DNA of 64,000 nt from Dipteris shenzhenensis (Eukaryota), in assembly GCA_047967505.1 (NCBI GenBank), contig CM106538.1. The stretch is one strand, 5' to 3'. A program made the translations under genes and the position numbers. Shown here one piece after another: positions 5,940 through 58,649 of this stretch (positions are counted from its first letter, which is position 1; each line of letters begins with the position of its first letter). The notes under the pieces were generated by a model. It saw only the letters and a program-made list of their open reading frames with translations, ran no database searches and was not told the origin of the DNA.

Positions 5940-6563
5940 TGTTAGAGACTCACTGTTCCCACCTGTGAGCCCCCGTTTTGTGGGGACAAGGGGCAGTGAG
6001 AGTAAGGAGGGATGGGAAAGAGAGACTCAGCAAACAGCAGAGATTTGGGGGGGGCTCCATGCCTTCCTAGATGCATGGACTGGCTGCACAGGGCACCCTT
6101 TTATAGGGGCCTGTAGTAGGGCCAGTCGGCCCAACCAGGGCCACCGACTAGGGCCGACCCTGGTCGGTTTTCCAGACTGATTTGGTGGGTCCCCAGTCAG
6201 GGGACCGACCCTGCTGGTCGGCCATACCAACAGGCTCGGGCAGTGCCTATAAAAGGCCCACACTTCCCTTCATTTTGGCATCCACTGCAGGACAGAAAGC
6301 CTCTGTTTTAGGCTGTGCTGTGCACTCAGATTTGGCATCTTCTGACAGAGAGAGTTCCTTCAGTTTGTCTCAGCACTTGGCTGAGTTTTGTATTGCTCCC
6401 CTGGAGCCAGTTTTCTGCCCACCATCCGGTGAATGAATATAATCTCTCTCTATCTAAGTTTTCTCTGAGTGAGTATTGTATCTGTGATCAGTTATCTGAG
6501 TTGAGTGTTGCTAGAGCGGGAGAGGTCTTGGCTGGAGGTTAGAGTGATTCTTTCCTTCTGTTT
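5940..6563 (+). repeat. 3' LTR of copia element, missing its last ~8 nt
   Basis: Matches 2302-2924; ends at CCTTCTGTTT without terminal TCTAACA. Confidence 0.95.
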
Positions 6564-7130
6564 GATTACCCATCCTCGGATTATGGTTGAGTCTGCAAAT
6601 GATGTTGTCAACATAAGGTTAACAACTCCCCCGGACCGATTTGATTACCCATCCTTGAATTATGGTTGAGTCTACAAATGATGTTGTGCCGCAATAGTTT
6701 TTACCCAATGAGTATGGTAAAGATGGCATCGGTGATAGATGGATTGAGCTTGTTGTCGATATTTTCCTTGTAATCCACGAGCACGGTAGATTGTCTGCTC
6801 AGTTTTATGAAGCCAGTATCAACCATTTCTTCAAACAACCACATATACTCCCCTTCAAGAGATATGGCTCTTTAAAAGAGGTGACTGGTTGTTGAAGCAT
6901 CTATCTGTTGATTTGGTTTGAAACTTAGCGTGGGTAGATGGTCATCAATGGTGAGGGACGCCTCCAGGATTAGTGCTAAAGCTTCATTGTATTTGGCACT
7001 TGAGTGTTTTATCATAACTACCTCGCAGCTCTGATGCATGTTTGTCCAAGGCTCTAATGAGTGTTTCTTGGCTTGTCCATTTGACCTTGGAGTATCTATT
7101 GATTAGGGGCCAATTGCAAGGAGCATCTTC

Positions 7131-9763: not shown

Positions 9764-12700
9764 TGTTAGAACAAATTGATGAAGGTATACCTATGTTTGT
9801 GTGTGTGTGCTTGTGTGTCCATGTGTGTGACCACCTGTGTGGTTAGTGTGCCTATAGTAGGTGTGATTGATGATGTGTCAATCAGTAGGTGTGAGTGTGG
9901 AAGGTTTTAGTGGATGATTGAGAGATTCATGGAGAGATCAGTGGAGTGATTTGTGGATCTAGGATGCTCTCTCTTGAGCTCACATACAATGTATCACTGG
10001 CCTATATATTGGAACTTCCTCTCATGAATAAAGTACTCTTTCTCCTTCATTGTCGATCTCATCATGAATTCTTTTCAGTTCCTTCATTTGGTATCAGAGC
10101 CATGTCCTCCTTGAGCTCCTAGCCTTCATTTTTTGCCATGTCATTACTCCTACCACCTCCTTTCTCCTTATTCACTAGCTTGCCCTCTTCTCATCCCAAA
10201 TTTCAAGAGCGTGTTCTCCCTCTACATGCAACTATTTCCCAAAAACTTTGAGTTGTAAAACCACCTTTCAAGGGCACACTCCCACCTCAAAGCATTTTGC
10301 AAGATTTTGCCCCTGCTGCCCGTGCCGATAGCTTCTTCACTTGGCCACTTTCTACAGAATTCTGCCTGTAGACTCAACCATTTGCAAAACCCTCTTAGGG
10401 GATGCTAGATGACATGATGAGCTAGGTGCTCACAAATTTTGAGTGCATTTGGTCCACAAAAGAAGGAGAAAAGGTAGAAAACCCAGTCGGAACTAGCAAC
10501 ACTTCCACAGACAATGCCGCATGAAAATGCACCTCTTCTTCATGCTGGACACTCTCCATAGTAAGGGATTCCATTCCACCAGAAAGCCCTTTGTTTGCTA
10601 CTCTAGAAGTCTTCAATTGAGGCCTCCAACTTCAAACTGTTTAGTTTGGGGAAAATAGTAAAATATATGGTCAAAGTTTAAAATTCTGAAGGGGCAAGGT
10701 GGTCAAAAGTTTCCTTGTTCATCATTTTTCACTTTTGCTTTTGGTCATTTGCTCATATAATGTCTTCTAGCATCGATTCAAGATTGATCTTTGGGTTGCT
10801 GTCCAGTTTGACTATGCTTGACTATGTCTACGTTTGGATGATGAGCTTCATTGACAACAATGATGTAGCCTATTTGATGCTTGAAGGTGACTCAGTGATG
10901 AATGTAGTTTCTATCATGATAGTTGAAGGCTAATTGCACTTGGATGGTCATATTTTGCCTTACATTCATGTATTGCCTTATGAGTTATATGAGCCTTATG
11001 TTTGTACAAGAGTAGACACTGCCCTTGCAATGATAAGTGGTAAGACCCTCTTCATATTCAATCTATTTGAAGGCATATGGGATGCATGAAAGATCAAAGA
11101 GCAAAGGAGTTACAAGATTGGCTACACCAAGAACCTCTCCAATGACAATGAACCTCACACTATGGTAGCTTGGAAGAGAAGAAGGAAAAGGACACGACAT
11201 ACCATCAAAGGGGGGTATTTCCCCACATCTTCAATTTAGAATTTTTGTGTGTGTGATCAATAAGGGTTCTATACCTTGGGATGTCCCCCTGAAAATATTG
11301 TATTGGGTTTTGTAAGGGTTGCTAGTCATTTTGTCAAGAAACCTCCAAGAGAGATTGTAAACTAGGGACGAAAATTGGAGTGAGATCATGTTGGAGCTAG
11401 GGTGTCCAAATGAGTCTACTCCCAATGCAACTTAGAGTGAGTCTAGGTCGGGATCATGTGTGTTGCCACCAGAGGTGGGCAAGCCATGCCATTTCCCATA
11501 GACTACTGCTAGGACTCAAGGTCATCAATTTGTGGGGGGTTGTTAGAACAAATGGATGAAAGTATACCTATGTTTGTGTGTGTGTGCTTGTGTGTCCATG
11601 TGTGTGACCACCTGTGTGGTGAGTGTGCCTATAGTAGGTGTGATTGATGATGTGTCAATCAATAGGTGTGAGTGTGGAAGGTTGTAGCGGATGATTGAGA
11701 GATTCATGGAGAGATCAGTGGAGTGATTTGTGGATCTAGGATGCTCTCTTTTGAACTCACATACAATGCATCACTGGCCTATATATTGGAACTTCCTCTC
11801 ATGAATAAAGTACTGTTTCTCCTTCATTGTTGATCTCATCATGACTTCTTTTCAATTCCTTCATTGGGTATCAAAGCCATGTCCTCCTTGAGCTCCTGGC
11901 CTTCATTTTTTGCCATGTCATCACTCCTACCACCTCCTTTCTCCTTATTCACTAGCTTGCCCTCTTCTCATCCAAAATTGCAAGAGCTTGTTCTCCCTTT
12001 GCATGCAACTATTCCCCAAACACTTTGAGCTATAAAACCACCTTTTGAGGGTGCACTCTGACCTCAAAGAATTTTGCAAGATTTCGCCCCTACTGCCCGT
12101 GCTGATAGCTTCTTCACTTGGACACTTTCTATAAAATTCTACCTATAGTCTCAACCATTTGCAAAACCCTCTGAGGGGATGCTGGATGACATGATGACGT
12201 AGCTGTTGATGAAGTTTGAGTGCATTTGGTCCATAGAAGAAGGAGAAAAGGTAGAAAAACCAATCAAAATTAGCAACACTCCCACAGACAATGCCGCATG
12301 AAAATGCACCTCTTCTTCATGTTGGACACTCTCCACAGTAAGGGATTTTATTACACCACAAAGCCCTTTGTTTGCTGCTCTAGAAGTCTTTAATTGAGGC
12401 CTCCAACTTCAAACTGTTCAGTTTTGAGAAAACAGTCAAATATATGGTCAAAGTTCAAAATCTTAAAGGGGCAAGGTGGTCAAAAGTTTCCTTGTTCATC
12501 ATTTTTCACTTTTGCTTTTGGTCATCTACTCATATAATGTCTTCTAGCATCGATTCAAGATTGATCTTTGGGTTGCTGTCAAGTTTGACTATGTTTGACT
12601 ATGTCTATGTTTGGATGATGAGCTTTATTGACAACAATGATGTAGCCTATTTGATGCTTGAAGGTGACTCAGTGATGAATGTAGTTTCTATCATGATAGT

Positions 12701-13590
12701 TGAAGGCTAATTGCACTTGGATGGTCATATTTTGCCTTACATTCATGTATTGCCTTATGAGTTATATGAGCCTTATGTTTGTACAAGAGTAGACATTGCC
12801 CTTGCAATGACAAGTGGTAAGACCCTCTTCATATTCAATCTATTTGAAGGCATATGGGATGCATGAAAGATCAAAGAGCAAAGGAGTTACAAGATTGGCT
12901 ACACCAAGAACCTCTCCAATGACAATGAACCTCACACTATGGTAGCTTGGAAGAGAAGAAGGAAAAGGACACGACATACCATCAAAGGGGGGTATTTCCC
13001 CACATCTTCAATTTAGAATTTTTGTGTGTGTGATCAATAAGGGTTCTATGCCTTGGGATGTCCCCCTGAAAATATTGTATTGGGTTTTGTAAGGGTTGCT
13101 AGTCATTTTGTCAAGAAACCTCCAAGAGAGATTGTAAACTAGGGACAAAAATTGGAGTGAGATCATGTTGGAGCTAGGGTGTCCAAATGAGTCTACTCCC
13201 AATGCAACTTAGAGTGAGTCTAGGTCGGGATCATGTGTGTTGCCACCAGAGGTGGGCAAGCCATGAAGTTTCCCATAGACTACTGCTAGGGGTCAAGGTC
13301 ATCATCTTGTGGGGGGGTGTTAGAACAAATTGATGAAGGTATACCTATGTTTGTGTGTCCATGTGTGACCACCTGTGTGGTGAGTGTGCTTGTAGTAGGT
13401 GTGATTGATGATGTGTCAGTCAGTAGGTGTGCATGGAGAGATTAGTGGAGTGATTTGTGGATCTGGGATTCTCTCTCTTGAGCTCACATACAATGTATCA
13501 CTGGCCTATATATTGGAACTTGCTCTCATGAATAAAGTACTGTTTCTTCTTCATTGTTGATCTCATCATGACTTCTTTTCAATTCCTTCA
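9764..13590 (+). mobile_element. Non-autonomous LTR element in tandem array (LTR-internal-LTR-internal-LTR), TRIM/LARD-like
   Basis: LTRs 9764-10086, 11541-11863, 13318-13590; PBS-Met after LTR1 and LTR2; G-run PPT before LTR2 and LTR3; 1777-bp period; TSD GTTGG at 9759-9763 and 13591-13595; no pol. Confidence 0.97.
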
Positions 13591-14623
13591 GTTGGGATGC
13601 AATACTTGGTGTTGCCACATTGTGGCTCTCTATCCCAATAATTCCAAGGGGTACATCTGGCCTTACTTCTTGGGAAGATTGAGGCTTTTCTCTGAGTGGG
13701 CAATCCATGCACGCATTGCCAACTCCACAATCTTTGCACACAGATTGGAAAGTACTTGGGCAACCTTTGTGAGGGCATTCAACAATCCGATGGTTTTCTC
13801 CAGATCCAAAATACTTGATGGGTGCTCGATATGTGGTTGGTCTTGCTTGATTGGCATACACCAGAATGAGTCCTTCAACATCATATATAGGCTATTCTAT
13901 TTCATACTCATATTGCTATTCTAGCTCTTTAAGCTGGAGTTGTTTCTCTAGGACTACTGGTGCAAGATTAGGGGCTCGAAGATACTATGGAGGATTGGAT
14001 TTCTCAATAGTTGAGGCACTTGTGTCCTCATAGGTATGGGATCGAGCCATGGCACTTGTCCATTAGGTGCGAGTGCTGGTTGCCTATATACTGGGATTGG
14101 CACTTGTTGGCCCTATTGGGATTGGGGTTGTGCAGTCGTCATATTGTAGAAGCATGTGTTTACATCATGACATACAAAATTGCAAATGGCACACCACAAC
14201 CTTAGGGGTTGGGGCACTTCTAGTGGGTTAAGTCTCTTCCTCAACATTGGGCACTGTGTGGTTGGCCATACAGTGTGGGCACCATATATTCTCTCTTGCA
14301 TGCTGTGGTGGTTGAGAGACACGCAACTTCTTCTCTATGGCTTGCATCAATTCTTCTTTCAATATTAAGGCATGGCTTCCACTCATCCTTGGTGGTGCGA
14401 TCCTTTGTGGAAGTGCTTCCCCTCTTGGAAGATTTCTTATCATGATGACTTGATTTATAGTCATCACTATCATTGTCAGAGTCAGTCATGCCATCCTCAA
14501 TGTCAATTATAGCTTCATGAGCATCATTGAAATGTGCATAGCTGCTACTACTAACTTTTTCAGTCCAGAGATGAACCATGGAATGAGGTACTTGTCGTTA
14601 GGACGGGGAACACACTTGGCTAT

Positions 14624-17110
14624 TGAAGGACAAATTGATGTAATGGGGTGTACCAAGGGGTACAAGGTTTGTGTGTCACCACATGGTGGTTAGTGTGACC
14701 AGGTTAGGTGGTAGAAGGTTCTATTAGGTGTGATTGAGAGATTCATGGGGCTGATTGAGAGATCAGTGCAGTGATTTGTGGATTTGGAGATGCTCTCCTT
14801 TGGGGCACATGCATTGTATCAATTGCCCTTATAAGGGCCTCTCCTCTCTTGAATAAACTACTCTATTTGCTCCATTTGCTTCTTTCCATTATCTTCTTAC
14901 TGTTGTTCCATCATGTGGTATCAGAGCCATGTTCACCCTCCTTGAGCCCTCTTTGAGTGCTATGTCATCATCTTCCCCAAATGAAGCTTTTCTTCATTCT
15001 CTTCCCATAGTTTTTCCTTAGGCTTGTTCTCCTCCATCTCTGAGATATTTTCCATGCCCTCTGAGCTTAAGTGTCCTTGTGTTGGGGAAAATCCCTAGCT
15101 TGGAGGAATTGACAAATGCTTGTGTCATTTGCCCATGTCGACCCACTTTTCAGCCACCAAAAATTCGCACACTTCTCCATGTAGGAGCTACCATTCACAA
15201 AATGGCTCTAGCTACTATTGGGAGACACTACAAGGAGCATGCTGATGAAGTTTGAGCAACAATGGTCTAGTATATGAGGAGAACAGACACAAAAACTAGT
15301 CGAGAAAGGCGCTACTCTCACAGAAATTCTGACGCAGCATTGCGCAATTCTTCGCTAGGGGCTCCTCTTTGGTAAAAGAGATTTGATTCCATTGTAAAAG
15401 CCACTTCATTTCTTGCTTCTATAGCTTCAATTGTACCCTCCAACTTCAGACTATTCAATTTGGGGGTAATAGTGATATTTTCTTCTAATGTGAACAATTG
15501 AATATAGTTAAGTGCTAGAAAGTTTCATCATTATCTTAGTTATCTTTGGGCTTTTGGATGTTTGACCATTGGAAGTGATCTGAGGCATTTTTTAGTCTGA
15601 TCTTTGGAGCAATGTCTTGTAGTTTGACAGTTTTGGTAAATGCTCATGATGCATATATGATATATTTGAATTGCATGCTATCTTTGTAAGGGACTAGACA
15701 TTGCCACATCAGTGGTAAGACCTCCCCTATGGCCTCCAAAAACAAGATAGAAAAGTTTGAAGGAGAGGGTTTTCATACTTGGTAGACTAAACTGAAATTT
15801 ATTCTCATGAAAAAGGGGATCTAGAATGTGGCTAATGGAAAAGAAAAGAAACCAACCATTAGGGAAGGAGAAGCTTTATGGCTCCCTAAGAATGAAAAGG
15901 CACTAGCCCTAATTGCTCTTGGATTGAGTGATTCTTTTATCCACCACATTGATGGGGATGTGAGAAGGCTGCTTATGCTGCATGGAGTCATCTTGAGCTT
16001 GTCTTTGGAGCACAGGGGAAGTGTTCCAAGTTTAGTTTGCTCATCAAATTCTTTGATATGAAATTGGATAGAGGAGAATACATCTCTTCATTTAAACTCC
16101 ATGAAGAGCATATTGACTCAGTTAGCTAGCATCAAGTTTAATCTTGATGATGACATTGTAATTGCTATCTTACTCAAAAGCCTAACTGAGGAATATGGCA
16201 CTATTGTCACTACTCTCACCAATATACCAGAGGTTAGTTTGGTGCAAATTGAAGCATCCCTCTTGGAAGACGAAAGGAAAATCAAATAGAGGAATGACTA
16301 CAAAGAACATGGGGCATATTTGGCCAAAAGCAACTTCAAGGGATCCACCAGCAAGAGCAAGATGAAGTGCAACTTTTGTGGAAAACCTGGACATTTTGAG
16401 AAAGAGTGCTATGCAAAGAAGAAATGTTAAGCAAACCTTGTGGAAGAAGTAGAGAAAGAAGAAGAAGAAGAACCAGAGGATGTTAAAGCTCTCACTGCTT
16501 TCACCACCCAAGTCAATCTTGATATGGGTCATATGTTTTGTAAGTTGTTTGTGTGTGTGGTCAATAATGGTTCTCTGCCATGGATAGTCCATCCTTAAAT
16601 GATTGCTAGTCCTTTGTTTGAGGTTTTAAAGGGTTGGACCCATGGGGATTTCCATACATAGTCATTGTCCAATCTTCCAGTGGTAAACCGAGAGCCATAA
16701 CCAAAGTGAGTCACAAGTTGGGGTCATGAGTGTTGTTAATATGTCTGAACAAACCATGAAGCTTCCCATGTACTAACTGCTCGGGTGAGGTCATCAATTT
16801 GTGGGGGGTATGAAGGACAAATTGATGTAATGGGGTTTACTGAGGGGTACAAGGTTTGTGTGAGTTTGTGTGTCACCACATGGTGGTTAGAGTGACCAGG
16901 TTAGGTGGTAGAAGGTTCTATTAGGTGTGATTGAGAGATTCATGGGGCTGATTGAGAGATCAGTGGAGTGATTTGTGGATCTTGAGATGCTCTCCTTTGC
17001 GGCACATGCATTGTATCAGTTGCCCTTATAAGGGCCTCTGCTATCTTGAATAAACTACTCTATTTGCTCCATTTGCTTCTTTCCATTGTCTTCTTGTTGT
17101 TGTTCCATCA
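14624..17110 (+). mobile_element. gag-only non-autonomous LTR retrotransposon (TR-GAG-like), complete
   Basis: LTRs 14624-14913 and 16811-17110 (TGA...TCA), PBS TGGTATCAGAGCC at 14916, G-run PPT ~16801-16808, TSD GCTAT at 14619-14623 and 17111-17115. Confidence 0.96.
15729..16520 (+). pseudogene. Copia-type gag pseudogene (UBN2-like plus CCHC knuckle)
   Basis: MASKNKIEKFEGEGFHTW..., IAILLKSL.EEYGTIVTTL, CNFCGKPGHFEKEC; stops at 15783, 15822, 16287 and frameshifts; end approximate. Confidence 0.92.
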
Positions 17111-18891
17111 GCTATGAATTTTTTCATTATTCCCAAGCATGTTTTGACCTTTGATTTTTTGTGCATTTCCATATTTCCAAGTTGGAGGGTGGGGTCATCT
17201 TGTAGCCTGTTGGTTTGGAACCTCCTTCTGAACTGCTTGGATAGTAGTGCCCATGTGGCTCTTTTTGCTACGAGTAGCTCTAGGTACCATTTTGAGGACT
17301 CATCGGTTGAGGCCAGGGGAAACCAGGTGGATTTAGTTTCATTTGATTGGTTGCCTCTAGCACAACATGCTACGTTAAAGGTTGAAGGAATCTGACAGGA
17401 TCCCCTCATCCATTGTACTTTGGCATTTCAAATTTACCAAAGTGTCTTCTTCCATTGGTGTTGTTGCATCAGTGTTCGAAGAAATATTTGGGATACAGAG
17501 TGCCATTTACTATTTCTTCTTCAATCCTTAGGTCCTCCATGCTACTTCTCAATGGTGAAAGTTCTCAAAAGTAGGTAGGTGCTAGCATTCATCCTGATCC
17601 AAGGTGCATACACAATGCTTAATTATGGCCTTTGAGTGCATTTGACGGTGAATTCCACAATTGATTTTGACCTACGTAGCCCAAAAATAGCAAAAGATAT
17701 ATGATCTTTTAAGAGTATAGACACATGGGTGTAGTTCTTCGGGCTTGGCTACCTGCATCATATTATCGTCCTATGGAAAATCAGTGTATTCAGTGATTAT
17801 TCTACACCTAGCCTGGAAGTTCAAAAGAATGGGATGGGCAGCAAGAGTCTGGAGGTCGGATGGGTGGGCTACTAGCAAGCTAAAGATCTAGACAAAAGTA
17901 TGAAATAGCTATAATGGGGTGATAGTGATCGAGATTTTGGCAAAAGATGGTAAGGAGTGTGTTGGGTGGGAGAGAGGTGGTGAGGTCAATGTGAAAAATG
18001 AGATTTTGTACGTGAAGTGCATCAAAGTTCATTTGGAGGGTGTGGAAGATTGTGCATGGTGAGAGTGTGTAAGTGTCTAGTTGATCTCTACTATTCTGAG
18101 GGTCGATTCTACTTTGTCCAACTGGTCCATCATGATTTGAACCAAGGACTTGCTCGCAGAGAGGTCATCCTTGAGATTTGTAACCGTCATGTAGAATTTC
18201 ATGTGGAATTATGGAACTTTTTGGGATTTGAGTGGCTTTATTTATGTTAGAATCAAGGGTACGCTCTTGGGGGACTGCATCAGGAGTTGATGCAGGTTCT
18301 TGTGTTACTATCTCATGAATCCAAGCATCGTGAGCTCGTGGATTCTATGTGTCTAGAAGTTTTGGGGCTCAAATATAATGTTTGCCTTGGTGGTAGCCTT
18401 GGGCCTCCAAGAGCTTCCTTGCGATCCAATGTGGGTGAGTCTTTTGCATTGGTGCATTGGCAATTGTCTTGTGGGTGTGGTGATAGATGTGTTGGACTTT
18501 GCTCGTAGAGGGAGTTATCCATTTTGGAAGGGGTGGAGGAGGGATTAGAGACCTTCCCATGGTGTTGGGAAACCATAAATGTTGCCCTCCTTTGTCGTAG
18601 TGTTCTACACAGCGAACGTCCTTGCACACCCATCACTCATGAGACATCTGGGTACTACCCATGGAAATGGGCTTGGAAGAAGAGGTGGAAGAAGAACTAG
18701 TGTTGAAGGTTCACCTTTATTGTGTATAGGGTAATGGCCTTGAGTGGAGTAGGGGTAGAAGTCTTTCTTGGGACAATGAATTGGGGGTTGGGATGTCTTT
18801 GGAGCTTCATGATTATCCTCCTCCAAAAATTCCTTACCCTTCAAAGGTGGTTGCATTGTAGGGGAATTGGTGTCCTCTTTATAGAATGGGA

Positions 18892-19230
18892 TCATTGAGA
18901 TATGCCCACTAGATGTGAGAGTGGATTTTTGCACTTTCTAGTCGATTTGGCAATTGATGGCATAGTAGCATGTTCTCCAAGGATCATCTGTTCATCTAGT
19001 AGTTCTATGGGAAGAACATAAAACTGAGTATCTACCACATGGCAAGCAATGGTTAGTTTGAAATCCACATAACCCAATGTATCTAAAACTTGGCCATTAA
19101 TGACCCAAACTGAAGCAACAATGAGGTTTAACGGTACCCTTATCACTTCCCATACTTTGTGGGAAATAAAATTATGACTTGCTCCCAGACCCACAAGTTC
19201 CTTCACTATGGTATTGGGACCCTACTACAA
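18892..19230 (-). pseudogene. Gypsy-type aspartic protease fragment
   Basis: LVGLGASHNFIS (decayed DSGASHNFI) and downstream MILG motif. Confidence 0.75.
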
Positions 19231-19419
19231 ATAAATATTCAACCTAGTTGGATCTATTGTTAATTCATTAGTCAGGCATAGGTGCTCTACTGTAGCTTTA
19301 AATAGAGCCATTAGTTTCCTTTGTATAATTTTTGCATTATGAATCATGGCCTCTTAGATGGCCTAGCGTTTCATCTGTGCTACCTTGGCTTTAAGCTCTT
19401 TCTCTCAGTGTATGGACTG

Positions 19420-19925
19420 AGAGTCTCTAGAGTGAGAGGACCATAATATCTGTTTTGTTTGCTACCATTGAGGTAGCCATCCATCTCAACCCCATCTAGG
19501 GTGGCTATTCTACATGCACCTTATGGAGTGATCTCCACTATGTGGTAGGGATCCATGCCCCTATATTTAAGTTTGCGCTTGGTGTTACAGATGCTATAGA
19601 GGAGTGCTAAGTCTACTTCTTCTAGCTCCTTGTTCTCGAGATTGAGATCAAACCATTTTTTGTGCCTCACCTTCTCCACTAAAAGGCAATACACTGTGCA
19701 TATCTTATCTCATCTAGCCATTCCAAATTGGTTAGGTGCTTAGCTAAGGCATTTTCGATGAGCCTTCCCTTAACTGCAATGCATAGCCTAGGCACTACGT
19801 ACTCCATTGGCATAAATGCCTCTACTTGAAGGCTAAGCTAAAGGGGGTATAGTTGGTTACCACTTTGTATGATGTTAGATAGGCCCACACTGTTGCGATG
19901 AGCTTGTGTTCCCAGTCAGTACAAC
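19420..19925 (-). pseudogene. Gypsy integrase C-terminal fragment
   Basis: Manual translation DWEHKLIATVWAYLTSYKVVTNYTP ... KRKLKYRGMDPYHIVEIT. Confidence 0.75.
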
Positions 19926-19949
19926 TGAAGTGGCCGCCCTGGAACCTAT

Positions 19950-20290
19950 CAAATGTGCATAGACTATCCTGCACTAAACAAAATCACAATGAAACAAATA
20001 TCCAATCCCTAGGATTGATGGACTTTTGGACAAATTGAAAGGGGCCAAGGTTTTTAGTAAGATCGATCTTAAATTTGGTTATCATCAAGTTTGTATGGTA
20101 GAGGAGGATATATAAAAGACTACCTTTTGAACTCAAAAGGGGCATTATAAATTCTTAATTATGCCTTTTTGGCTAACTAATGCTCCAGCTACTTTTAGTA
20201 GAATGATGAATCACATCTTTCTTAAACACCAAGACTGTGTAGTAGTAATTTTTGATGGTGTTTAGCAAAGACATTGAGGAGCATAAGGAA
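19950..20290 (+). pseudogene. Gypsy reverse transcriptase fragment
   Basis: Manual translation [60 protein letters not shown]. Confidence 0.9.
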
Positions 20291-20329
20291 CATCTATAGC
20301 AAGTATTTTCTTTCTAAAACCTTGCACAA

Positions 20330-20760
20330 GTGTTAATTTATGCATCGACCACCGATTATTGGGTGAGCAAGCAGAATTCCCAAATCTTACATGTGTACTT
20401 GTGTACATGTAGGATAAATATGTAGCAATAATTGACATCCACATGTCCATGTGTAAGCTTAGTGCCAAAATTTGCATGGCTCTTAAGTTGGGTGATCTTC
20501 ACACACTTTCAAATTTTCATGTGCATCGAACACTGACTGTAAGTAAAGCATTAGATTGGTGCCAAAACTTTGCATAGGTCTTCTTTCATGTCACTTATAT
20601 GCTCTTGAAAGTTTTCATGTGCATCAGACACCGATTTTGTAGTGAACAAGCAAAATTTGCACTTGCATGTGTAGGAGAAATATGCAACAGTGGTCAACAT
20701 CCACATGTCCAAGTGTTATATTGGTGCCAAAATTTGCATGGGTATTGACTTGAGTAACCT
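20330..20760. repeat. Degenerate repeats (CATGTGCATC(A)GA.AC.GA, GTGCCAAAA(T/C)TTGCAT, ACATCCACATGTCCA)
   Basis: Motifs recur 2-3 times between 20339 and 20760. Confidence 0.6.
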
Positions 20761-20761
20761 T

Positions 20762-23128
20762 TGAAGGACAAATTGATGTATGTGTATGTGCCTACGGGCT
20801 AGGAGTCCTACGCTAGGAGTGTGTGAGTGTAGGTGTGCTAGAAGGTTCTAGTGACTTGGCAGTTAGGTATGTCAGGTTGGTGTGATGTGATTTGGAGTGA
20901 GCATAGGAGGTAACTGATTGAGCTAATCATGGAGATGCTTGTGGATCTAGGATCTACAAACATGGAGGCAGTTGCCTATATATGTAACCACTCATGAACA
21001 AAGTTGTGCTCATTGTGATTCACCTTTGCCTCATTGTTTAGTCCATGAACCAACATGTGGTATTAGAGCTTGCTGATAATCCTAGTGCCTAGGAAGAGTA
21101 TCCAAGAGATTCCAAGAAGATTCCCTCTTCTTCCCTAAATTCTTCTCATCCTTTCTTCTTCCCCCGTGACCTTGGAAAGCTAAGTTCTCTTCATCCAAGC
21201 AATGGATTGAGAAATCCTCCCAGCTAGACTCTCCTCATGCTTGGACGACCTCTCTGACCAAAGGGATTGTCACAATTCATCGCCATTCTCACGCGCCACT
21301 TCTTTGTCTCCTCTATGAAGTTCTTACAATGCTGGTCACTGTAGTATCTCATTTTGCAATTCCTCTTAGCCATGGCTGGACAACTACTAGAACAACCCAC
21401 AATAGAAATCTAAAGTGATTTGGTCTAGTATCAAGGGAGAAATTGATGACAAAACAGTTAGTTTAGGAGAAGACATGGTTTCTTAGTTGATGAAGATGTT
21501 GCCTCGGGTGATGTGATGCGTCATTTCACCTAAGATTTGTACTGAGTCCTCTCCTCCTATGTATCTTTGATTGCGTAGCAAAAGCCCCAAGTTTGATGCT
21601 ATGTGGAGTGAGGTATCAAGCCTCCAAAGTTCCTCTATTTTCTACAAGCATTTCTAGACATATCTTGAAGATTGATGCTACACTAAATGCTAAGTTGATG
21701 CTTGAGGTATAAAGTGGGGTTGAAGTACAGTTCAAAGATTGCTGTTTCAGTTTAGAGAATGCTCTTTGAAGTTCAGTTGGCATTGATTTCTTGACAACAT
21801 GCCAAGTTCTCAATGCTCTTCCAATGCTAAGCACTTGAAGAAGACTACAAGAAGGACAAAGTACAAGGTAAAGAAGACTCCAGTTAAGAGGATTTGGGAG
21901 AAGCCAACTAGTTATGCATATGCCAAACAACTAGGTTTTTTTGAATTTTTATCTAGCAATTTGCATCTATATCGTGAAGGTGATTTCTTTGTTGAGAAAG
22001 ACTGATCTTTTGTAAAAAAGGGCTTAGACACTGCCATTAAATTGGTAAGACATTACCAAATGGCCTCCAAAATCAAGATAGATAAGTTTGAGGGAGAGGC
22101 TTTTCATACTTGGCAGACCAAACTGAAATTTATTCTCATGAAAAAGGGGATTTGGAAGGTGGCTAATGGAAAAGAAAATAAACCAACAACTAGGGAAGGA
22201 GAAGATTTATGGCTCCCTAAGGATGAAAAAGCACTAGTCATTGCTCTTGGATTGAGTGATTCTTTCATCCACCACATTAATGGCTGTGAGACTACTCATG
22301 CTGCATGGACTCATCTTGAGCATATTTTTGGAGCACAGGGGAGATGTTCCAAGTTTATCTTGCTCTTCAAATTCTTCGATCTAAAATTGGATAGAGGAGA
22401 ATCCATCTCTTCCCATTTAAATTCCATGAAGAGCATATTGACTCAGTTATCTAGCATCAAGTTTAATCTTGATGAAGACATTGTAATTGCTATCTTACTT
22501 AGAAGCCTAACTAAGGAATATAGCACTATTGTCACCACACTCACCAATATACCAGAGATTGGTTTGGTGAAAATTGAGGCATCCCTCTTGGAAGAGGAAA
22601 GGAAAATCAAATAGAGAAATGACTACAAAGAACATGGGGCATATTTGGCCAAAAGCAACTTCAAGGGCAAGAGCAAAATGAAGTGCAACTTTTGTTGAAA
22701 ACTTGGACATTTTGAAAAAGAATGCTATGCAAAGAAGATATGTTTAGCAAACCTTGTGGAAGAAGTAGAGACAGAAGAAGAAGAAGAACCAGAGGATGTT
22801 ACTCTCACTGCTTACACCACCTAAGTCAATTTTGACAAGGGTGAGGACCCATATGTTTTCTAGGTTATTTGTGAGTGAGGTCAATAATGGTTCTCTGCCA
22901 TGGATAGTCCATCTTTAAATGATTGTTAGTCTTTTGTTTGAGAGTTTTTCTTTTTGGACTCATGGGGATTTCCATACATAGTCATTGCCTATCTCCCAAC
23001 TGTAAATCAAGAGTCCTAGGAGTGAGTCACAGGTTGGGGCCATGTGTGTTGCCACATGATAGTGGGCAAGCCATGGAGCATCCCATGGACTACTGCTGAG
23101 AGATGAGGTCATCAATTTGTGGGTGGAG
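20762..23128 (+). mobile_element. Second gag-only (TR-GAG-like) element, 3' LTR absent
   Basis: 5' LTR 20762-21055 (TGAAGGACAAATTGATG...CCAACA), PBS TGGTATTAGAGC 21058-21069, gag and 3' tract highly similar to 15729-16808, ends at PPT relic GTGGGTGGAG. Confidence 0.92.
22060..22824 (+). pseudogene. Copia-type gag, 254 codons with two in-frame stops
   Basis: MASKIKIDKFEGEAFHTWQTKLKFILMKKGIWK...; TAG at 22612-22614, TGA inside the knuckle (CNFC*KLGHFEKEC), terminal TAA 22822-22824 in the same frame. Confidence 0.92.
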
Positions 23129-23825
23129 CATAAGCATGAGCATATGTCTCCTTCTCTTATGCTTATGCTTATGCATGAGCATATGTCTCCTCTTATGCAT
23201 AAGCATAAGCATAAGCATATGTCTCCTTCTCTTATGCTCATGCATAAGCATGAGCATATGTCTTTGAATCTCTTTTATGCTTAAGCTTTCTCTCTTTTTC
23301 TTTTATGCTTATATATGCTCATGCATAAGCATGAGCATGTGTCTCCTTCTCCTTCTCCTCTTTTCCTCTTTCCCCTCTTTGAATCTCTTTTCCTCTTTTT
23401 CTCCCTCTTTTCCCTCTTTCATGCATAAGCATATGTCTCCTTCTCTTATGCTCATGCATAAGCATAAGCATGAGCATATGTCTCCTTCTCTTATGCTTAT
23501 GCTTATGCATGAGCATATGTCTCCCTCTTTCAATCTCTTTTTCACTTTCCCTCTCTCTTTCCCTCCCTCTTTCCCCTCTTTCAATCTCTTTTTCTCTCTT
23601 TCTCTTTTATGCTTAAGCTTTCTCCCTTTTTCTTTTATGCTTATATATGCTCATGCATAAGCATGAGCATATGTCTCCTTCTCCTTCTCCTCTTTCAATC
23701 TCTTTTTCTCTCTTTTTCTTTTATGCTTATATGCTCATGCATAAGCATAAGCATATGCTTTGTTTACTTTCCCTCTTCTTCCTCTTATGCATAAGCATAA
23801 GCATATGTCTCCTTCTCTTATGCTC
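23128..23825. repeat. Low-complexity palindromic hexamer array (GCATAA/GCATGA versus TTATGC/TCATGC) with CT-rich spacers
   Basis: Unit GCATAAGCATGAGCATATGTCTCCTTCTCTTATGCTTATGC and variants repeated about ten times. Confidence 0.92.
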
Positions 23826-23859
23826 CTTCTCCTTCTGCTTCTCCTCTTTTCCTCCTTTC

Positions 23860-25440
23860 TGTTGGGATATGTCAAGGTGTATGCCTCAGGCACACCTTAT
23901 GTTTCTATGTGTGAGTGCTAGAGGCACAGTTAGGTGCCCACAAGCACAGTTAGGTGGTGGAGAGCCACATAGGATGATTGAGAGAATCTAGGAGCAGATT
24001 GAGGAGATGATTGTGGAGCTCTGAAGTCGTCAGTGATGTCAGTGAGCATGTATGAGGTGCCTACTTAAGGACCTCACTCTTCTTCATTCTACAAGCAAGT
24101 AATGCAAGTATTCTGAGTTTGTGTCCACTCTTTGCTTTCCTTTCAGCTTACCAACATGGTATCAGAGCCCTTTGATCCCCCTTGAGCCCATTTCTGCCAC
24201 ATCATCATCTTCTTCTTCATCTTCTTCTTCTCCATTTTCCTCTTTCTTCCCAAAGTCTTTGAGAGCTTGGTTCTCCACCTACAGACGACCATTGCCCAAA
24301 CCCTTTGATCTGGAAACTCCTCTAGTATGGACAAACTTCCACTTGCAAGCAATTGAAAAAAAAACATCTGTAGTGGCTGCCATTCCCTAAACAGCGCATT
24401 TTTCGCCATTTCTTATATTGCTCAATACTCCTTGCCTACTCCACCATTGCCTGAGCCCTCTTAGGAGTAGATGGGCGACCTGAAGACAAAGATTTTGAGC
24501 CATTTTTCAGGTCATTTGGTTTAGTAACAAGGGAGAAATCGTCAAAACTCAGGTTCAGCCTGTAGCAACTCTCTCGGGCAAAAGTGCACACCATTTCGTC
24601 CAACCTCTGTGCTAGACCCTCTCTGGTATATGAGCTTTCTTTTGCTTTAAGAAGCCCTCTTTTCCTTGCTTTGAAGAGTGAGCTACAAAACCTCCAAGTT
24701 CAGCCTTTTGGTTTTGACGGTTTTGGATAAGTTTTTGAAGATGATGCTACATAAAATGCTACTCTAGCATTTCTGGTTTTTTGAAACTTTCAATAACTTT
24801 AGTACAAGTGTGGCTTCAGTTTTGTTTTGAATTGCTAGACCTGGTTTTGATTGGAAAGTATTCATTTTAGCCACTTCTATGAAGCATGTAAGAAGAAGCA
24901 TCATTGTTTGAAATTTGGTCACAAGACTTTGCTACATCAAATGCTTATATTTTGAAGCATTTCAGTTGTTATTCTAAGCCCTGTAAGAGAGAAGACACTG
25001 CCCAATACCTGGGTTAGACCCTCTCATGGCTTTCTTATGCAAAATATGTAAAAAGCCAAAACATAAAGCAATGTCTTGTTATGCTACAAAGGATGAAAAT
25101 GTCAACTTGACTTCCTTGTTGAAGATTGCCAAAACAATGGTTGCCAAAAAGGAACCAACTACAAAGCCAGAGATCTACCCTCTCCTGGCACTTTTATTGG
25201 ACTCCAAGTACAAGAAAAAGATGAAGGTCAGATACCTAAGATATGCTTCTCTACACAACTATGGAGATGACAAGATAATTGTTCTCTTGAAGGATATGAT
25301 TTTCAGATCCACTTGTTCTATCATAGTACCATCTTATAAGGCACTAGACACTGCCCATGTGGTAAGACCTTGCCTTGACATGGATATTTTGCCTCCACAA
25401 GATGAGGCATCCTTTGAAGATTATGCATTTTAAATCATCT
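23860..25440 (+). mobile_element. 3'-truncated non-autonomous LTR element of the same group
   Basis: LTR 23860-24156 (TGTTGG...CCAACA), PBS TGGTATCAGAGCC at 24157, leader motifs shared with the 9764/14624/20762 elements; no 3' LTR found. Confidence 0.88.
25026..25433 (+). CDS. 135-aa ORF starting with a CCHC zinc knuckle (gag nucleocapsid-like)
   Basis: MAFL-CKICKKPKHKAMSC fits CX2CX4HX4C; ATG sits where gag starts in the sister elements; C-terminal part may be fortuitous. Confidence 0.5.
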   Translation: MAFLCKICKKPKHKAMSCYATKDENVNLTSLLKIAKTMVAKKEPTTKPEIYPLLALLLDSKYKKKMKVRYLRYASLHNYGDDKIIVLLKDMIFRSTCSIIVPSYKALDTAHVVRPCLDMDILPPQDEASFEDYAF

Positions 25441-25559
25441 CTATGTATGCTCCAGATCTCTCTTTTTATGTCAAGGCTTTGGCGGGAGTCCTGACGAGTT
25501 TGTAGCATAGATGACCGATGAGAAGGCATTGAGATTCTTCTCTCTGCTATCTCAGAGGA

Positions 25560-55864: not shown

Positions 55865-58649
55865 TGAGAAAGATCCAATATGTGATCACCACTAAGCCTA
55901 ATGCACACAAGGTCAGTGGAAGAACTAAGGAGGCTGAAAGCACACTACATAAGACATGAGAGGGAGATAGAAAATGTTTATCTCTTACAATCTGTGGTCT
56001 CAACAATGCATGGTAGGCCTCTTATATAGAGAGTGCCCTTTGAATAGTCAACCATGTGGGATCCTCTCATCCACATCTCTCCTTGTGGATATCCTCAATC
56101 CACATCTCCACATCATGTAGTCCACATCCTAGAGTGGCTACTTTAATTATTTCCTATACCATACCTTAGCCCTTTAATCTATGTGCTCCTGGCACCATAT
56201 TTCTCAACACCTCCCCTTGGTGCCATGATCCTTTGGCTATTGCAAGGTGGTCAGATGTGAGTTACATTCCATCACCTCCCTTTAGTGCATGCATTGCTAC
56301 TTAAGATGGTCAAGTGTGGTTTACATGTCAATACCTCCCGTGGGTGCTTTCATAGCTACTCTCAGGTGGTCAAGTTTGATTACAAAATATAGGCAAGGTT
56401 GGCAAGGTTTTTGTTTCTCAATGCTTCATGTCGATGCTGTTTGCTTCTTCGCTTGACATAGTTTGATGCATGATGCTTTGTTCTTCCATGTGCCTTGATG
56501 CTTTATGTGTGGATGCCATGCTTCGTGCTATGGTCATCTCATGCACTTGTGCTTTTGGCATGCTTATTGCATTCATGCATTGATTTGTCATTTGTTGCAA
56601 AGGTCTTACCAATTGATTTCTTTCAATATTGGCAGTGTCTAATTGCATACAATGATTCTGATTCAAGAAGCGCGTAGAGCTCGAATAGACGATCAATTTT
56701 TCTTTTTGGAGCATGTGCGAATTCCTCATGGATTGCAAGTTACGCCTTGTCGAAAATTTTGTGAAGAAGAGGGGGCCTTGATGATGCGGCATAGGAGTTC
56801 ATATGCTGCTTAAAAATTGTGCTTGGCAAGGGCTATGTGCTTAGGTGGCACTTAACTAATCCTGCCCCTAACCATAAGCCTTAACCATGGTTTGACTTAA
56901 CCACATCCACACCCAACCTCATGGCATAGACTAGAGCACTGACAAACCAATCTAACCCAATAACCCAGGGTTGCTTGGAGCTAACTCAAGTTAAAAGCCT
57001 ATCTAACACGTGGCCTTTTTGGAGAACCTTAGCAAAAATATGACTTTGAAGAAAACTCTAAAGAGGTGATGACGAAAGATGATGTTGGAAGTAGCGTTTC
57101 CACTTTGATTGTGGGCATCCTATTTCTCTTCCTCTGCTGCGTCCTTACAGGCTTCTTCTTGCTTGGTGCAACGCTTGGCAAGGCCTTGTGCATCCTCCTA
57201 CTCGATCATCGCTCTGCTATCCCTACTCCCATTGCTAAAAGCGACATCTTTATCCACCAAGTATTTCATGGAGGAGGATAGGAGCCATGAGTAGGAGGTC
57301 TCCTTGCATGTGAGGTAAAACTCAAAGGAGATGCGTAGATGCTACTATTGTCGTGAGTATGGCATAGGTACTGGCGGAGTTGCTATGGAGGGATGAAGCA
57401 TGGGCATTGATGGAGACTTAGAGCTCCTTAGATGTAGGTCGTTGCACGCTGGAGAGGCTTTGGCTATGTCACTGCAATCTCTTGTGGTCATAAGTGCGAT
57501 CGATGGTATGAAGCTGGGAGTTTGTGTTGTTGCTTATTTGCTGGCGTCGATGGAGCTGGGCTAAGCCTTCCCCAGTCATAGAAGCCAGTTGTGTAGTCGC
57601 CCGTTGGAGTCATCCTCATATGTAGGTCTGGGAGGCATTGTGGGCATCAACCGCTCGACCGACTCTGATGATGCGGCTGGCAAAGTCATATCGATAACTG
57701 CCTTCATGTTCCAACTCACTCCATTTCCAATTCTTTCAAATCGCCGGTAGCCTCTATTCTGTCCAAGACTTGCATGGATATCACATCTTCCTTTCACACC
57801 TCTATTGATCTAGAGGTAAGCCCATTTGGCCAAACAGATTCAGAGTAGCCAGCTAATGCTGTGAAAGCACAGGAGGATAACGTTCTGGCTCAAATCGTCC
57901 AATTCATTCTTCAAGTAGTTTAAAATATTGACCGTGGATGGGGCGATGCCAAACTGATGCTGATGTCTCTGCATCCACTCACAAAGCTTCTCTAAACCGA
58001 ATCGCCACCTGGTGTGGAAAGTGATCATGTTCTGATGTTGCACCTTCCTTGTGTATGCATGAAGAAGGCCATCATCTATCTTTCATCTGCATGTGGGTTG
58101 CCGCCTTGATCCATACTCTCTTCTAGGAGAGACTTTGATATCGCTGAATCTTAGCACCTCGTGAGGCACTTTTGCTTCACGAGCTCACATCGCTCTGGAG
58201 TGTGAGAGACTTTCACTCTCCACAATGTGACTTTTGACACTATCTACTCAACCAATGTGAGCATTCACAAGAAACAAAGTGCTTCCAATGAATCAATGAA
58301 CTCATGGGCTCTCTCCCTAACATCAAGATAAGAGTGTGCCACTCGATCTAAACTACCTAGCCTTGTGGGCAACCTATGCTCTGATACCATGAGAAAGATC
58401 CAATATGTGATCGCCACTAAGCCTAGTGCACACAAGGTCAGTGGAAGAACTAAGGAGGCTCTTATATAGAGAGTGCCCTTTGAATAGTCAACCATGTGGG
58501 ATCCTCTCATCCACATCTCTCCTTGTGGATATCCTCAATCTACATCTCCACATCATGTAGTCCACATCCTAGGGTGGCTACATTAATTCTTTCCTATACC
58601 ATACCTTAGCCCTTTAATTTATGTACTCCTGGCACCATATCATTCAATA
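55865..58649 (-). mobile_element. Complete non-autonomous LTR element (2785 bp) with decayed unidentified ORF
   Basis: LTRs 58390-58649 (internal ~85-bp deletion) and 55865-56209, PBS at 58378-58389, PPT at 56210-56218, TSD GGGAG at 55860-55864 and 58650-58654; no pol motifs. Confidence 0.94.

What the first reader, a model, noticed from the sequence alone, without database searches (positions are those of the whole stretch)
11013..25382. Conserved hairpin AGACAYTGCC-loop-GGTAAGAC placed just before the start codon in four different non-autonomous LTR elements
Seen: six copies at 11013-11047, 12790-12824, 15695-15722, 22025-22051, 24993-25020 and 25345-25369. The flanking AGAC tetramers and the stem base are near-invariant, while loop length and inner stem vary yet remain pairable: TTGCCAC/GTGGTAA, TGCCA/TGGTA, GCCCA/TGGGT, GCC-CTTG/CAAG-TGGT. 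Each is followed 5-10 nt later by ATG (15729, 22060, 25026, 25380) or by ATA in the two tandem-array units. Surrounding leader sequence is otherwise much more diverged. Five of six copies carry a consensus splice donor G|GTAAG in the 3' arm. Established: retroviral leaders such as HIV-1 SL2/SL3 place a stem-loop splice donor and packaging signal just upstream of gag. Inference: this is a selected cis-acting RNA element for packaging, dimerisation, splicing or translation initiation. I do not recognise it as a described motif.
Basis: partly seen in the sequence, partly recalled or inferred. Interest (0 to 1): 0.78.

Follow-up and report, generated by a model that had tools for sequence, protein, structure and literature searches.

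The report
Conserved RNA fold before copia gag
A short conserved RNA fold sits just before the capsid (gag) start codon in one family of plant-type copia retrotransposons and survives in copies that lost the gene, so it is probably a signal the elements need in order to be copied.

Summary
The composite pattern matches 6 times in the window against 0 in 100 shuffles.

The element is larger than the hairpin described. It has a variable outer helix of 4-6 bp and a nearly invariant internal loop, 5' UAGACAY opposite 3' AGACC. Inside that lies an inner helix on an invariant UGCC/GGUA base (G.U in 11 of 11), topped by a variable apical hairpin that is usually self-complementary. The start codon lies 5-10 nt after AGACC.

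Each copy sits 768-1737 nt downstream of its own tRNA-iMet-type primer binding site, in related copia elements that are gag-only or gag-less. Two metagenome contigs carry four more copies, three of them in tandem before a copia gag. Pair counts show compensatory changes (79% paired against 32-48% in slid registers, 11 sequences).

No Rfam family matches, and two of three literature searches for it found no description (the third returned only unrelated papers). My best reading (0.4) is a Gag-recognition or packaging signal. Rivals are a host-factor export element, a U1/splice-donor site, and translation control. The loop resembles the retroviral CTE loop (AAGACA opposite AAUGAC), but both plant models fail to detect the CTE, so it is not a member. 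No RNA or whole-genome data were available.

The parts
11002..11058 (+). Copy A1 of the element (outer helix AAGAG/CUCUU; core 11013-11047), in unit 1 of the tandem LTR-internal-LTR array. No gag; ATA stands where the ATG would be.
   Evidence: (R1 60.9 bits)
12779..12835 (+). Copy A2, in unit 2 of the same array. It differs from A1 at two positions that leave the structure intact.
   Evidence: the MFE fold is the two-helix fold; 59.8 bits
15684..15733 (+). Copy B, 6 nt before the gag ATG at 15729 of a complete gag-only element.
   Evidence: (63.7 bits)
22014..22063 (+). Copy C, 7 nt before the gag ATG at 22060. Its outer helix is weak (2 bp).
   Evidence: 50.5 bits; gag Pfam E 1.3e-35
24981..25031 (+). 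Copy D5 (reads AAGACA and GGUUAGACC), 5 nt before an ATG that opens an ORF with a CCHC knuckle.
   Evidence: 54.4 bits
25334..25380 (+). Copy D6, 352 nt after D5 in the same element; outer helix AAGGCA/UGCCUU.
   Evidence: 54.1 bits
56591..56652 (-). It has the longest apical hairpin. It lies 1737 nt after the PBS and about 430 nt before the PPT of a gag-less element.
   Evidence: (60.7 bits)
55953..55990 (-). Possible decayed copy. The outer-helix flanks are kept but the centre is lost. It lies just downstream of the TATA box of the 3' LTR of E.
   Evidence: 13.5 bits, E 0.82; 9.4 bits, E 3.6; weak
14916..14927 (+). PBS TGGTATCAGAGC of element B. The other PBS sites are 10089-10100 and 11866-11877 (A), 21058-21069 (C), 24157-24168 (D) and 58378-58389 on the minus strand (E).
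14624..14913 (+). 5' LTR of element B. The 3' LTR is 16811-17110 (92% identical) and the PPT lies just before 16811.
15729..16430 (+). gag of element B, with stop codons and a CCHC knuckle near 16370-16420. It is 86-88% identical to C from 7 nt before the motif onwards.
22060..22611 (+). gag of element C (Retrotran_gag_2).
9764..13598 (+). Element A: a tandem LTR-internal-LTR-internal-LTR array with a 1777-bp unit. LTRs are at about 9764-10088, 11541-11865 and 13316-13598.
15437..15448 (+). A second conserved leader island, CCTCCAACTTCA, 258-390 nt upstream of the motif in A1, A2, B and D. It also occurs at 10623, 12400 and 24691.

Best explanation
The motif is a structured cis-acting element of the sense-strand RNA of one copia lineage. 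Two helices hold open an internal loop whose letters never change: 5' (U/C/A)AGACAY opposite 3' AGACC, each strand offering an unpaired G between A's. I think it most likely is the site where the lineage's own Gag (single CCHC knuckle) recognises the RNA, that is, a packaging (Psi-like) signal.

The elements that carry it are gag-only (B, C, the L009 element) or gag-less (A, E, L011). They must be mobilised in trans, and such elements keep only what is needed in cis: LTRs, PBS, PPT and this element.

Shown: the conservation, the helices, the strand specificity, the position and the retention after gag loss. Inferred: that the binding partner is Gag and that the outcome is encapsidation.
For: 1. 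The loop letters are invariant while the flanks are not. In the 11-copy alignment A4, 15 columns are invariant and 4 more are at least 90% conserved, almost all within the AGACAYUGCC and GGUAAGACC blocks. Leaders outside the motif are 32-60% identical.

2. Both helices vary with compensation. In 11 copies, 79% of cells are paired against 65.8+/-2.6% in shuffles (0 of 500 reach it) and 32-48% in slid registers. Eight pairs carry double-sided changes against 4.9+/-1.1. The outer helix alone is 69% paired against 51% shuffled and 35-49% slid. L009c turns the otherwise invariant CG pair into AU.

3. The variable inserts are self-complementary beyond shuffles in 6 of 10 copies (Fisher p = 2.8e-4; A1 dropped as a near-duplicate of A2).

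4. The G.U pair is kept in 11 of 11 copies, so the fold exists only on the gag-sense strand.

5. Position. The motif lies in the leader between the PBS and gag, 768-1737 nt from the PBS, and the ATG follows AGACC by 5-10 nt.

6. The motif is intact in three gag-less contexts, A, E and L011.

7. It is multiplied in tandem, three copies in L009 and two in D, as expected for a binding module.

8. It is lineage-restricted. The three copia elements with pol in the window (F, G, H), whose gag is about 25% identical where comparable, give no hit.

9. B and C switch from 32-60% to 86-88% identity 7 nt before the motif. This fits template switching between co-packaged RNAs at the one shared block; that last step is inference.
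Against: - No binding, packaging or expression data exist. No sequencing run was listed, and no whole genome is held.
- There are only 11 copies, 7 of them from one window, and the structure was derived from the same sequences on which it is counted.
- RNAalifold on the 11 copies recovers only the 4-bp conserved stem, at -1.56 kcal/mol.
- Single-sequence folds are weak (z -1.2 to -2.3) and show the two-helix form in only 4 of 7.
- Three copies (D6, L009b, L009c) have no apical extension and L009a has no outer helix.
- No autonomous partner carrying the motif was found.
- Loop letters that stay identical while gag drops to 42% identity fit a conserved host partner at least as well as a co-evolving Gag.
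- The fixed place at the foot of the start codon also fits a role in translation.
Confidence: 0.4

Rival explanations
1. It is a binding site for a conserved host factor that handles unspliced retroelement RNA: a functional analogue of the retroviral constitutive transport element (nuclear export or cytoplasmic use), working through a plant protein other than NXF1.
For: The architecture is alike. The CTE fetched here folds into helices around 6x6 internal loops with AAGACA opposite AAUGAC, next to a GGGUAAG. The plant element has AGACA opposite AGACC and GGUAAG.

The loop letters are invariant across gag proteins that are only 42% identical. Tandem copies occur in L009 and D. A review (passage) states that export of LTR-element RNA has not been studied in plants (PMC12786077).
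Against: Models R1 and R2, built from the plant copies, do not detect the CTE. The best hits on the three CTE loci have E 0.13 to 5.5 and lie outside the loops.

AAGACA itself occurs in 1 of 11 copies. The opposite strand and the loop sizes differ. GGUAAG lies on the other side of its loop strand.

Plants are said to lack NXF1 (PMC12786077, passage). The motif is absent from the other copia lineages in the window, which is unexpected for a general host signal.
Confidence: 0.2
2. It is a 5' splice site or U1 snRNP binding site, held in a hairpin that regulates its use or protects the RNA, as in the major splice donor stem-loop of retroviral leaders.
For: GGUAAG is present in 9 of 11 copies and half of it is paired, so folding and U1 binding would compete. 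A conserved, apparently unused 5' splice site also sits beside the CTE loop, and its authors suggest U1 binding (PMC4338338, passage).
Against: D5 (GGUUAG) and L009c (GUUAAG) break the donor but keep the pairing, L009c by a compensatory change.

The invariant letters extend well beyond a donor, to AGACC and the whole 5' strand.

The gag-less elements keep the sequence 3' of the donor, so they are not products of its use.

Element B holds only gag between motif and PPT, so there is nothing for a subgenomic RNA to serve.

A review (passage) says plant LTR elements generally lack introns (PMC12786077).
Confidence: 0.12
3. It controls translation of gag, acting as a landing or entry platform at the start codon that lets ribosomes bypass a leader of 770-1740 nt.
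For: ATG lies 5-10 nt after AGACC, 0-3 nt after the outer helix, in 6 contexts. Between the PBS and the motif the leaders hold 20-46 ATG triplets in A1, A2, B, C and E, 9 before D5 and 22 before D6, so plain scanning would rarely reach gag.
Against: A, E and L011 have lost gag, and A and L011 even lost the ATG (it is now ATA), yet they keep every invariant letter. The two upstream tandem copies in L009 have no ATG behind them. This rests on sequence data only and does not exclude a double role.
Confidence: 0.12
4. There is no RNA function. The block is conserved at the DNA level (an internal promoter, initiator or enhancer in the leader), or it merely persists as a recombination junction. A minor variant is that the two AGAC motifs are m6A sites.
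For: YYAGACA resembles an initiator (recalled consensus). TATA-like runs lie 30-45 nt upstream in A, B and D5. B/C homology starts at the motif. Both AGACA and AGACC fit RRACH (recalled).
Against: A DNA site does not explain compensatory changes in two helices, self-complementary inserts, or the strand-specific G.U pair. TATA-like runs are missing in E and L009. m6A on plant LTR-element RNA is described as repressive (PMC12786077, passage).
Confidence: 0.08

Closest known systems
   Same: It lies between the PBS and the gag start. It is a short stem-loop module with unpaired purines. It is kept by defective elements that depend on proteins supplied in trans. A splice-donor-like GGUAAG sits in a stem.
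   Different: There is no sequence similarity to any of these. The conserved letters lie in an internal loop rather than an apical loop. The loops are not palindromic. The leader is far longer (768-1737 nt from PBS to motif). No binding or packaging data exist.
Constitutive transport element (CTE) of simian type-D retroviruses and of NXF1 intron 10
   Same: It is a stem, internal loop, stem and loop of about 50 nt. AGACA lies on one strand of the loop and a GAC-containing strand lies opposite. A GGUAAG-type 5' splice-site sequence adjoins the loop. It occurs in two or more copies (passages of PMC4330393, PMC4338338, PMC4174252).
   Different: The plant covariance models do not find the CTE. 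The first letter is U or C, not A, in 10 of 11 copies. The partner strand is AGACC, not AAUGAC. The loop is about 7-8 x 5-6 nt rather than 6 x 6. GGUAAG forms the apical rather than the basal helix. The motif sits before gag, not near the 3' end. The host kingdom is said to lack NXF1 (PMC12786077, passage).
TR-GAG, TRIM/LARD and BARE-2 type non-autonomous plant LTR elements
   Same: Element B fits TR-GAG: LTRs, PBS, PPT, a single gag ORF, about 2.5 kb. A and E are gag-less derivatives, like TRIM or LARD.
   Different: The TR-GAG paper reports no significant RNA structure in its leader and suggests that PSI and DIS are absent or labile (PMC4350172, passage). Here a conserved structure is present.
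Structured leader of plant pararetroviruses (CaMV)
   Same: It is a long leader with many upstream AUGs before the first ORF. That leader is reported to recruit export factors (PMC12786077, passage citing Kubina 2021).
   Different: CaMV uses one extended hairpin of about 480-600 nt. Here the conserved unit is a module of about 50 nt, and no large conserved fold of the leader was tested.

Membership tests
CTE (MPMV/SRV, NXF1 intron 10) | Stem-loop with an internal loop flanked by two helices | tested here: met
   Two helices supported by pair counts and by insert self-complementarity.
CTE (MPMV/SRV, NXF1 intron 10) | AAGACA in the internal loop (the NXF1-binding motif; PMC4330393 and PMC4174252, passages) | tested here: not met
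   AGACA is present in 11 of 11 copies. The full AAGACA on the 5' strand is present only in D5 (1 of 11); the others read UAGACA (8) or CAGACA (2).
CTE (MPMV/SRV, NXF1 intron 10) | Similarity of sequence plus structure to a real CTE | tested here: not met
   R1 and R2 run over three CTE-bearing loci gave no hit at the loops. The best hits had E 0.13 (R1) and 5.5 (R2) and lay elsewhere.
CTE (MPMV/SRV, NXF1 intron 10) | Binds NXF1/TAP and exports unspliced RNA | not testable with these tools
   A review (passage) says plants do not use NXF1 (PMC12786077). The nearest gag clusters are Streptophyta.
Retroelement packaging signal (Psi) | Lies in the leader between the PBS and gag, or overlaps the gag start | tested here: met
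Retroelement packaging signal (Psi) | Kept by defective elements that are mobilised in trans | tested here: met
   The motif is intact in the gag-less A, E and L011 and in the gag-only B, C and L009.
Retroelement packaging signal (Psi) | Specific binding by the cognate Gag/NC and a requirement for encapsidation | not testable with these tools
Major splice donor stem-loop of retroviral leaders | Consensus 5' splice site within the stem | tested here: inconclusive
   GGUAAG is present in 9 of 11 copies. It is broken in D5 and L009c with the pairing kept.
Major splice donor stem-loop of retroviral leaders | A downstream acceptor and an ORF expressed from the spliced RNA | tested here: not met
   Element B holds only gag between the motif and the PPT. 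The gag-less copies are not deleted from the donor.
Major splice donor stem-loop of retroviral leaders | Junction reads at the donor | not testable with these tools
   No run could be laid on the region.
Any Rfam family | Match to a curated covariance model | tested here: not met
   There was no hit at any copy at E up to 1 over 9000-26500. Only a 9-bit chance hit appeared at E up to 10 on the 76-nt stretch.
Ty1/copia, TR-GAG type (the host elements) | LTR pair, PBS, PPT and a single copia-type gag ORF, under 4 kb | tested here: met
   Element B. gag Pfam PF14223 in C and in L009.

The most novel reading that the evidence does not exclude
The element is a plant counterpart of the retroviral CTE. 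An internal loop presenting AGAC on both strands, with an adjoining 5' splice-site-like GGUAAG, directly recruits a conserved host protein that licenses export or cytoplasmic use of unspliced retrotransposon RNA, in a kingdom reported to lack NXF1. It would then be a convergent (or very ancient) solution, and a bait for finding the plant factor.
Probability: 0.15. Interest if true: 0.85.

Novelty: new variant of a known kind. Interest (0 to 1): 0.6.

Why it matters
Cis-acting RNA signals of plant LTR retrotransposons, for packaging, dimerisation or export, are almost unknown. In the passages I read, a 2025 review says export of these RNAs has not been studied in plants, and the term 'packaging signal' does not occur anywhere in its text. 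The TR-GAG paper found no leader structure.

A 50-nt element with invariant loop letters, covarying helices and retention in gag-less parasites gives a concrete, mutable handle. It could show how non-autonomous elements hijack the proteins of others and which elements form one mobilisation group. It would also supply a covariance model for annotating this lineage. If the CTE-like reading holds, it offers a bait for a plant RNA export or handling factor.

Tried and rejected
**Data sources that gave nothing**
- Sequencing runs: none was listed and no RNA holder was listed, so read laying could not be used.
- gag-based locus searches in viral and prokaryote genome collections found none.
- CTE papers sought by PMC id were not held. 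One literature search was useless because 'cte' matched inside other words. No supplements were consulted.

**Pattern scans in other collections**
- Scans of viral contigs and prokaryote genomes gave only chance hits: 7 and 8 loci, scoring 14-25 bits with R1.
- In the metagenome scan, 19 loci matched. I accept only L009 (46 bits) and L011 (32 bits). L003 and L017 (27 bits) lie in a bacterial MFS transporter gene. L002 and L016 (24 bits) lie at the end of a gypsy-type integrase/chromodomain ORF. I treat these four as chance.

**Readings tested and rejected**
- Rfam: no family matches.
- Coding: the motif-to-ATG distance is 33 nt in B but 34 nt in C, and a stop lies just upstream in B.
- A second PBS or a tRNA match: UGGUAAGACC shares only UGGUA with the element's own PBS.
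- Dimerisation loop: palindromes occur in some apical loops only.
- K-turn or loop-E geometry: the register does not fit (by eye, not computed).
- Motif-like stretches seen by eye upstream of gag in the pol-bearing elements G (41884-41840, minus strand) and H (about 47130, minus strand). G scores E 0.76 with R1 and is not listed with R2; H is never listed.
- CTE membership: rejected.

Full report
**Observation.** The six copies are at the stated coordinates. AGACAYTGCC occurs exactly seven times in the window. The composite pattern AGACAYTGCC-N(2-30)-GGTAAGAC matches 6 times against 0 in 100 shuffles. D5 is the seventh copy and reads GGTTAGAC. The stricter pattern, with the flanking T and C, matches only 8 times in 596 Gb of prokaryote genomes. 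When the seven copies are aligned with 120 nt on each side, mean column identity is 52% and 16 of the 23 invariant columns fall inside the motif.

**Anatomy.** The AGAC tetramers are not paired with each other. They are direct repeats that lie on the two strands of an internal loop. Single-sequence folds of A2, B, D5 and E (4 of 7) show the same plan:
- an outer helix of 4-6 bp whose sequence differs from copy to copy (AAGAG/CUCUU, AGGG/CCCU, GAGAG/CUCUC, AAGGCA/UGCCUU, UGCAA/UUGCA);
- the loop strands 5' N-UAGACAY and 3' AGACC-N;
- an inner helix that starts with UGCC/GGUA;
- a variable apical hairpin.

An unguided MAFFT alignment puts the outer pairs of all seven copies in one register. On that alignment 85% of cells pair, against 37-45% in registers slid by 1-3 columns, and 6 of 11 pairs have changes on both sides.

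With four further copies from outside the window, 11 sequences in all, the figures are 79% paired against 65.8+/-2.6% in shuffles (0 of 500 reach it) and 32-48% slid. Eight pairs have double changes against 4.9+/-1.1. The outer helix alone is 69% paired against 51% shuffled and 35-49% slid. The G.U pair of the inner stem is kept in 11 of 11 copies, so the fold exists only on the gag-sense strand. The one change in the otherwise invariant stem is compensatory (CG to AU, in L009c). The variable inserts are more self-complementary than their own shuffles in 6 of 10 copies (combined p = 2.8e-4; A1 dropped as a near-duplicate of A2).

Several results go against the structure and should be weighed:
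- RNAalifold on the 11 copies predicts only the 4-bp conserved stem.
- Folding z-scores of single copies are modest, -1.2 to -2.3.
- D6, L009b and L009c have no apical extension, and L009a has no outer helix.
- The structure was derived from the same sequences on which it is counted.

**Context.** Every copy belongs to an LTR element with its own PBS, TGGTATCAGAGC or a near variant. I recall this 12-mer as the complement of plant initiator tRNA-Met; I did not test that.
- Element B (14624-17110) is complete. It has LTRs that are 92% alike, a PBS, a 768-nt leader, the motif, a gag with a CCHC knuckle, and a PPT.
- Element C carries a copia-type gag (Pfam PF14223, E 1.3e-35).
- Element A is a tandem LTR-internal-LTR-internal-LTR array without gag.
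- Element E is gag-less, on the minus strand.
- Element D has two copies, 352 nt apart, around a remnant with a zinc knuckle.

The distance from PBS to motif is 768-1737 nt. That stretch holds 20-46 ATG triplets in A1, A2, B, C and E, 9 before D5 and 22 before D6. ATG follows AGACC by 5-10 nt in B, C, D5, D6 and E, and ATA stands at 6 nt in A.

The leaders of A, B, C and D are homologous but only 32-60% identical. The motif is one of their three best-conserved islands, together with the PBS and a block CCTCCAACTTCA.

B and C are 86-88% identical from 7 nt before the motif to the PPT, but not before it. That is a sharp recombination boundary at the motif.

Three other copia elements in the window carry pol domains (F, G, H). 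Their gag is about 25% identical to B/C where it can be compared, and they have no copy. Models R1 and R2 each find the same seven sites (42-66 bits) and nothing else above 14 bits.

The nearest protein clusters of the gag are from Streptophyta. Only 4 homologues were found among 5.8 billion proteins, the best at 59% identity.

**Relatives outside the window.** One metagenome scan with the strict pattern gave 19 loci. Chance matches to the same pattern in bacterial genomes, and to a slightly looser pattern in phage contigs, score 14-25 bits with R1. One metagenome locus at 27 bits lies in a bacterial transporter gene. Two loci stand clear of that background.
- L009 (46 bits) has three tandem copies. 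The last is followed after 10 nt by the ATG of a copia gag (PF14223, E 1.9e-12; 42% identical to C gag).
- L011 (32 bits) has one copy in a gag-less internal region, about 270 nt before a PPT and LTR start, again with ATA at 6 nt.

These two contigs come from one assembly, and I cannot say whether it holds the same plant as the window.

**What it is not.**
- No Rfam family matches.
- It is not coding. The reading frame relative to the ATG differs between B and C.
- It is not a second PBS.
- The apical loops are not consistently palindromic.
- No held paper contains two of the four motif strings searched.
- The Sirevirus conserved-motif paper does not contain the words stem-loop, hairpin or packaging, and mentions 'leader' only in its reference list (PMC2829016, passages).
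- The TR-GAG paper reports no leader structure (PMC4350172, passage).

**Mechanism.** The pattern is invariant unpaired letters held between helices that are free to change. That is the signature of a recognition site for a protein or an RNA.

Elements that have lost gag (A, E, L011), and in A and L011 even the ATG, keep every invariant letter. This argues that the element does more than serve gag translation. Defective elements must keep what is needed in cis, and besides the LTRs, PBS and PPT that means the signals for handling and encapsidating the RNA.

Four things point to a Gag-recognition (packaging) signal, and I give that reading 0.4:
- the position in the leader at the gag border;
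- restriction to one gag lineage within this window;
- tandem multiplication;
- the recombination boundary at the motif.

That each loop strand offers one unpaired G for one CCHC knuckle is my inference.

**Rival readings.**
- A conserved host partner (0.2) is favoured by loop letters that stay the same while gag drifts to 42% identity.
- The splice-donor or U1 reading (0.12) is weakened. Two of 11 copies break GGUAAG while keeping the pairing. The invariant letters go far beyond a donor. The gag-less derivatives are not deleted from it. B has nothing but gag to express.
- Translation control (0.12) fits the fixed place at the ATG and the ATG-rich leader, but not the retention after gag loss.
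- A DNA-level role (0.08) does not explain the compensatory changes or the strand-specific G.U pair.

**Comparison with the CTE.** The loop reminded me of the constitutive transport element of simian type-D retroviruses. I turned that memory into a test by fetching three CTE-bearing viral contigs and folding one of them.

The CTE there consists of helices around two 6x6 internal loops with AAGACA opposite AAUGAC, next to an ACCU/GGGU helix that continues as GGGUAAG. Passages in papers confirm three points. AAGACA in the loop is the NXF1-binding motif (PMC4330393, PMC4174252, PMC7551171). The core is a 53-nt stem-loop with a conserved, apparently unused 5' splice-site sequence beside the loop (PMC4338338). 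Extra tandem copies raise the effect (PMC4174252).

The plant element shares the plan, AGACA on one strand and a GAC strand opposite, plus the adjoining GGUAAG and the multiplication. It differs in the first loop letter, the partner strand, the loop sizes, the side on which GGUAAG lies and its place in the element. Both plant models fail to detect the CTE. It is therefore not a member of that family. Whether it works like one is open. Plants are reported to lack NXF1, and export of LTR-element RNA has not been studied in them (PMC12786077, passages).

**Verdict.** The finding is a real, strand-specific, structured and conserved RNA element of one plant copia lineage. As far as my searches reach it has not been described, and its function is unresolved. 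The evidence base is small: 11 copies, no RNA data and no genome. Interest is 0.6.

Noticed in passing
window 15688/22018 (elements B and C): B and C are 86-88% identical from 7 nt before the motif to the PPT, but only 32-60% identical in the leader. This is a sharp recombination boundary exactly at the motif, suggesting the gag module is exchanged between families.
   Followed up: partly
window 9764-13598: Element A is a tandem LTR-internal-LTR-internal-LTR array (1777-bp unit, 94% identity between units), the form expected from unequal recombination between LTR elements.
   Followed up: partly
window 10623, 12400, 15437, 24691 (+): A second conserved leader island, CCTCCAACTTCA, lies 258-390 nt upstream of the motif in A1, A2, B and D. 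A two-mismatch version lies about 450 nt upstream in E (57091-57080, minus strand). It is absent from L009 and L011.
   Followed up: partly
window 55953-56060 (-): The 3' LTR of E diverges from its 5' LTR just after the TATA box and continues into a decayed copy of the motif region, with flanks like those of D5. The element looks chimeric.
   Followed up: partly
window 25380-25433 (+): The short ORF after copy D6 ends in ...EDYAF. That resembles the C-terminal ...DWAF and ...EWAF of the gag-only proteins P0001 and P0003, so D looks like a scrambled gag with a motif copy inserted between the knuckle and the tail.
   Followed up: no
protein P0004: Its N-terminal extension before the gag start (…DRHYQKNLIRPP…) could be a read-through of a motif-like sequence (AGACAC … AUAAGACC) in another organism.
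   Followed up: no
window 2128-2301 and 6561-6734: The sequence just upstream of the 5' LTR of copia element F (LTRs 2298-2925 and 5936-6563) is repeated at 97% just downstream of its 3' LTR. That is unusual for a simple insertion.
   Followed up: no
window 41305-41562: A perfect 129-bp tandem duplication lies inside the gag region of copia element G (minus strand).
   Followed up: no
window 23127-23790: A low-complexity tandem region between C and D gives sub-threshold Rfam miRNA hits (for example mir-3149, 37 bits against a gathering score of 100). These are most likely chance matches.
   Followed up: no
L016:1201-1234 and L002:711-744: An exact pattern match lies directly after the stop of a gypsy-type integrase/chromodomain ORF, with a plausible bulged inner helix and an AAGG/CCUU outer helix, but it scores only 24 bits. 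I treated it as chance, though a distant relative is not excluded.
   Followed up: partly
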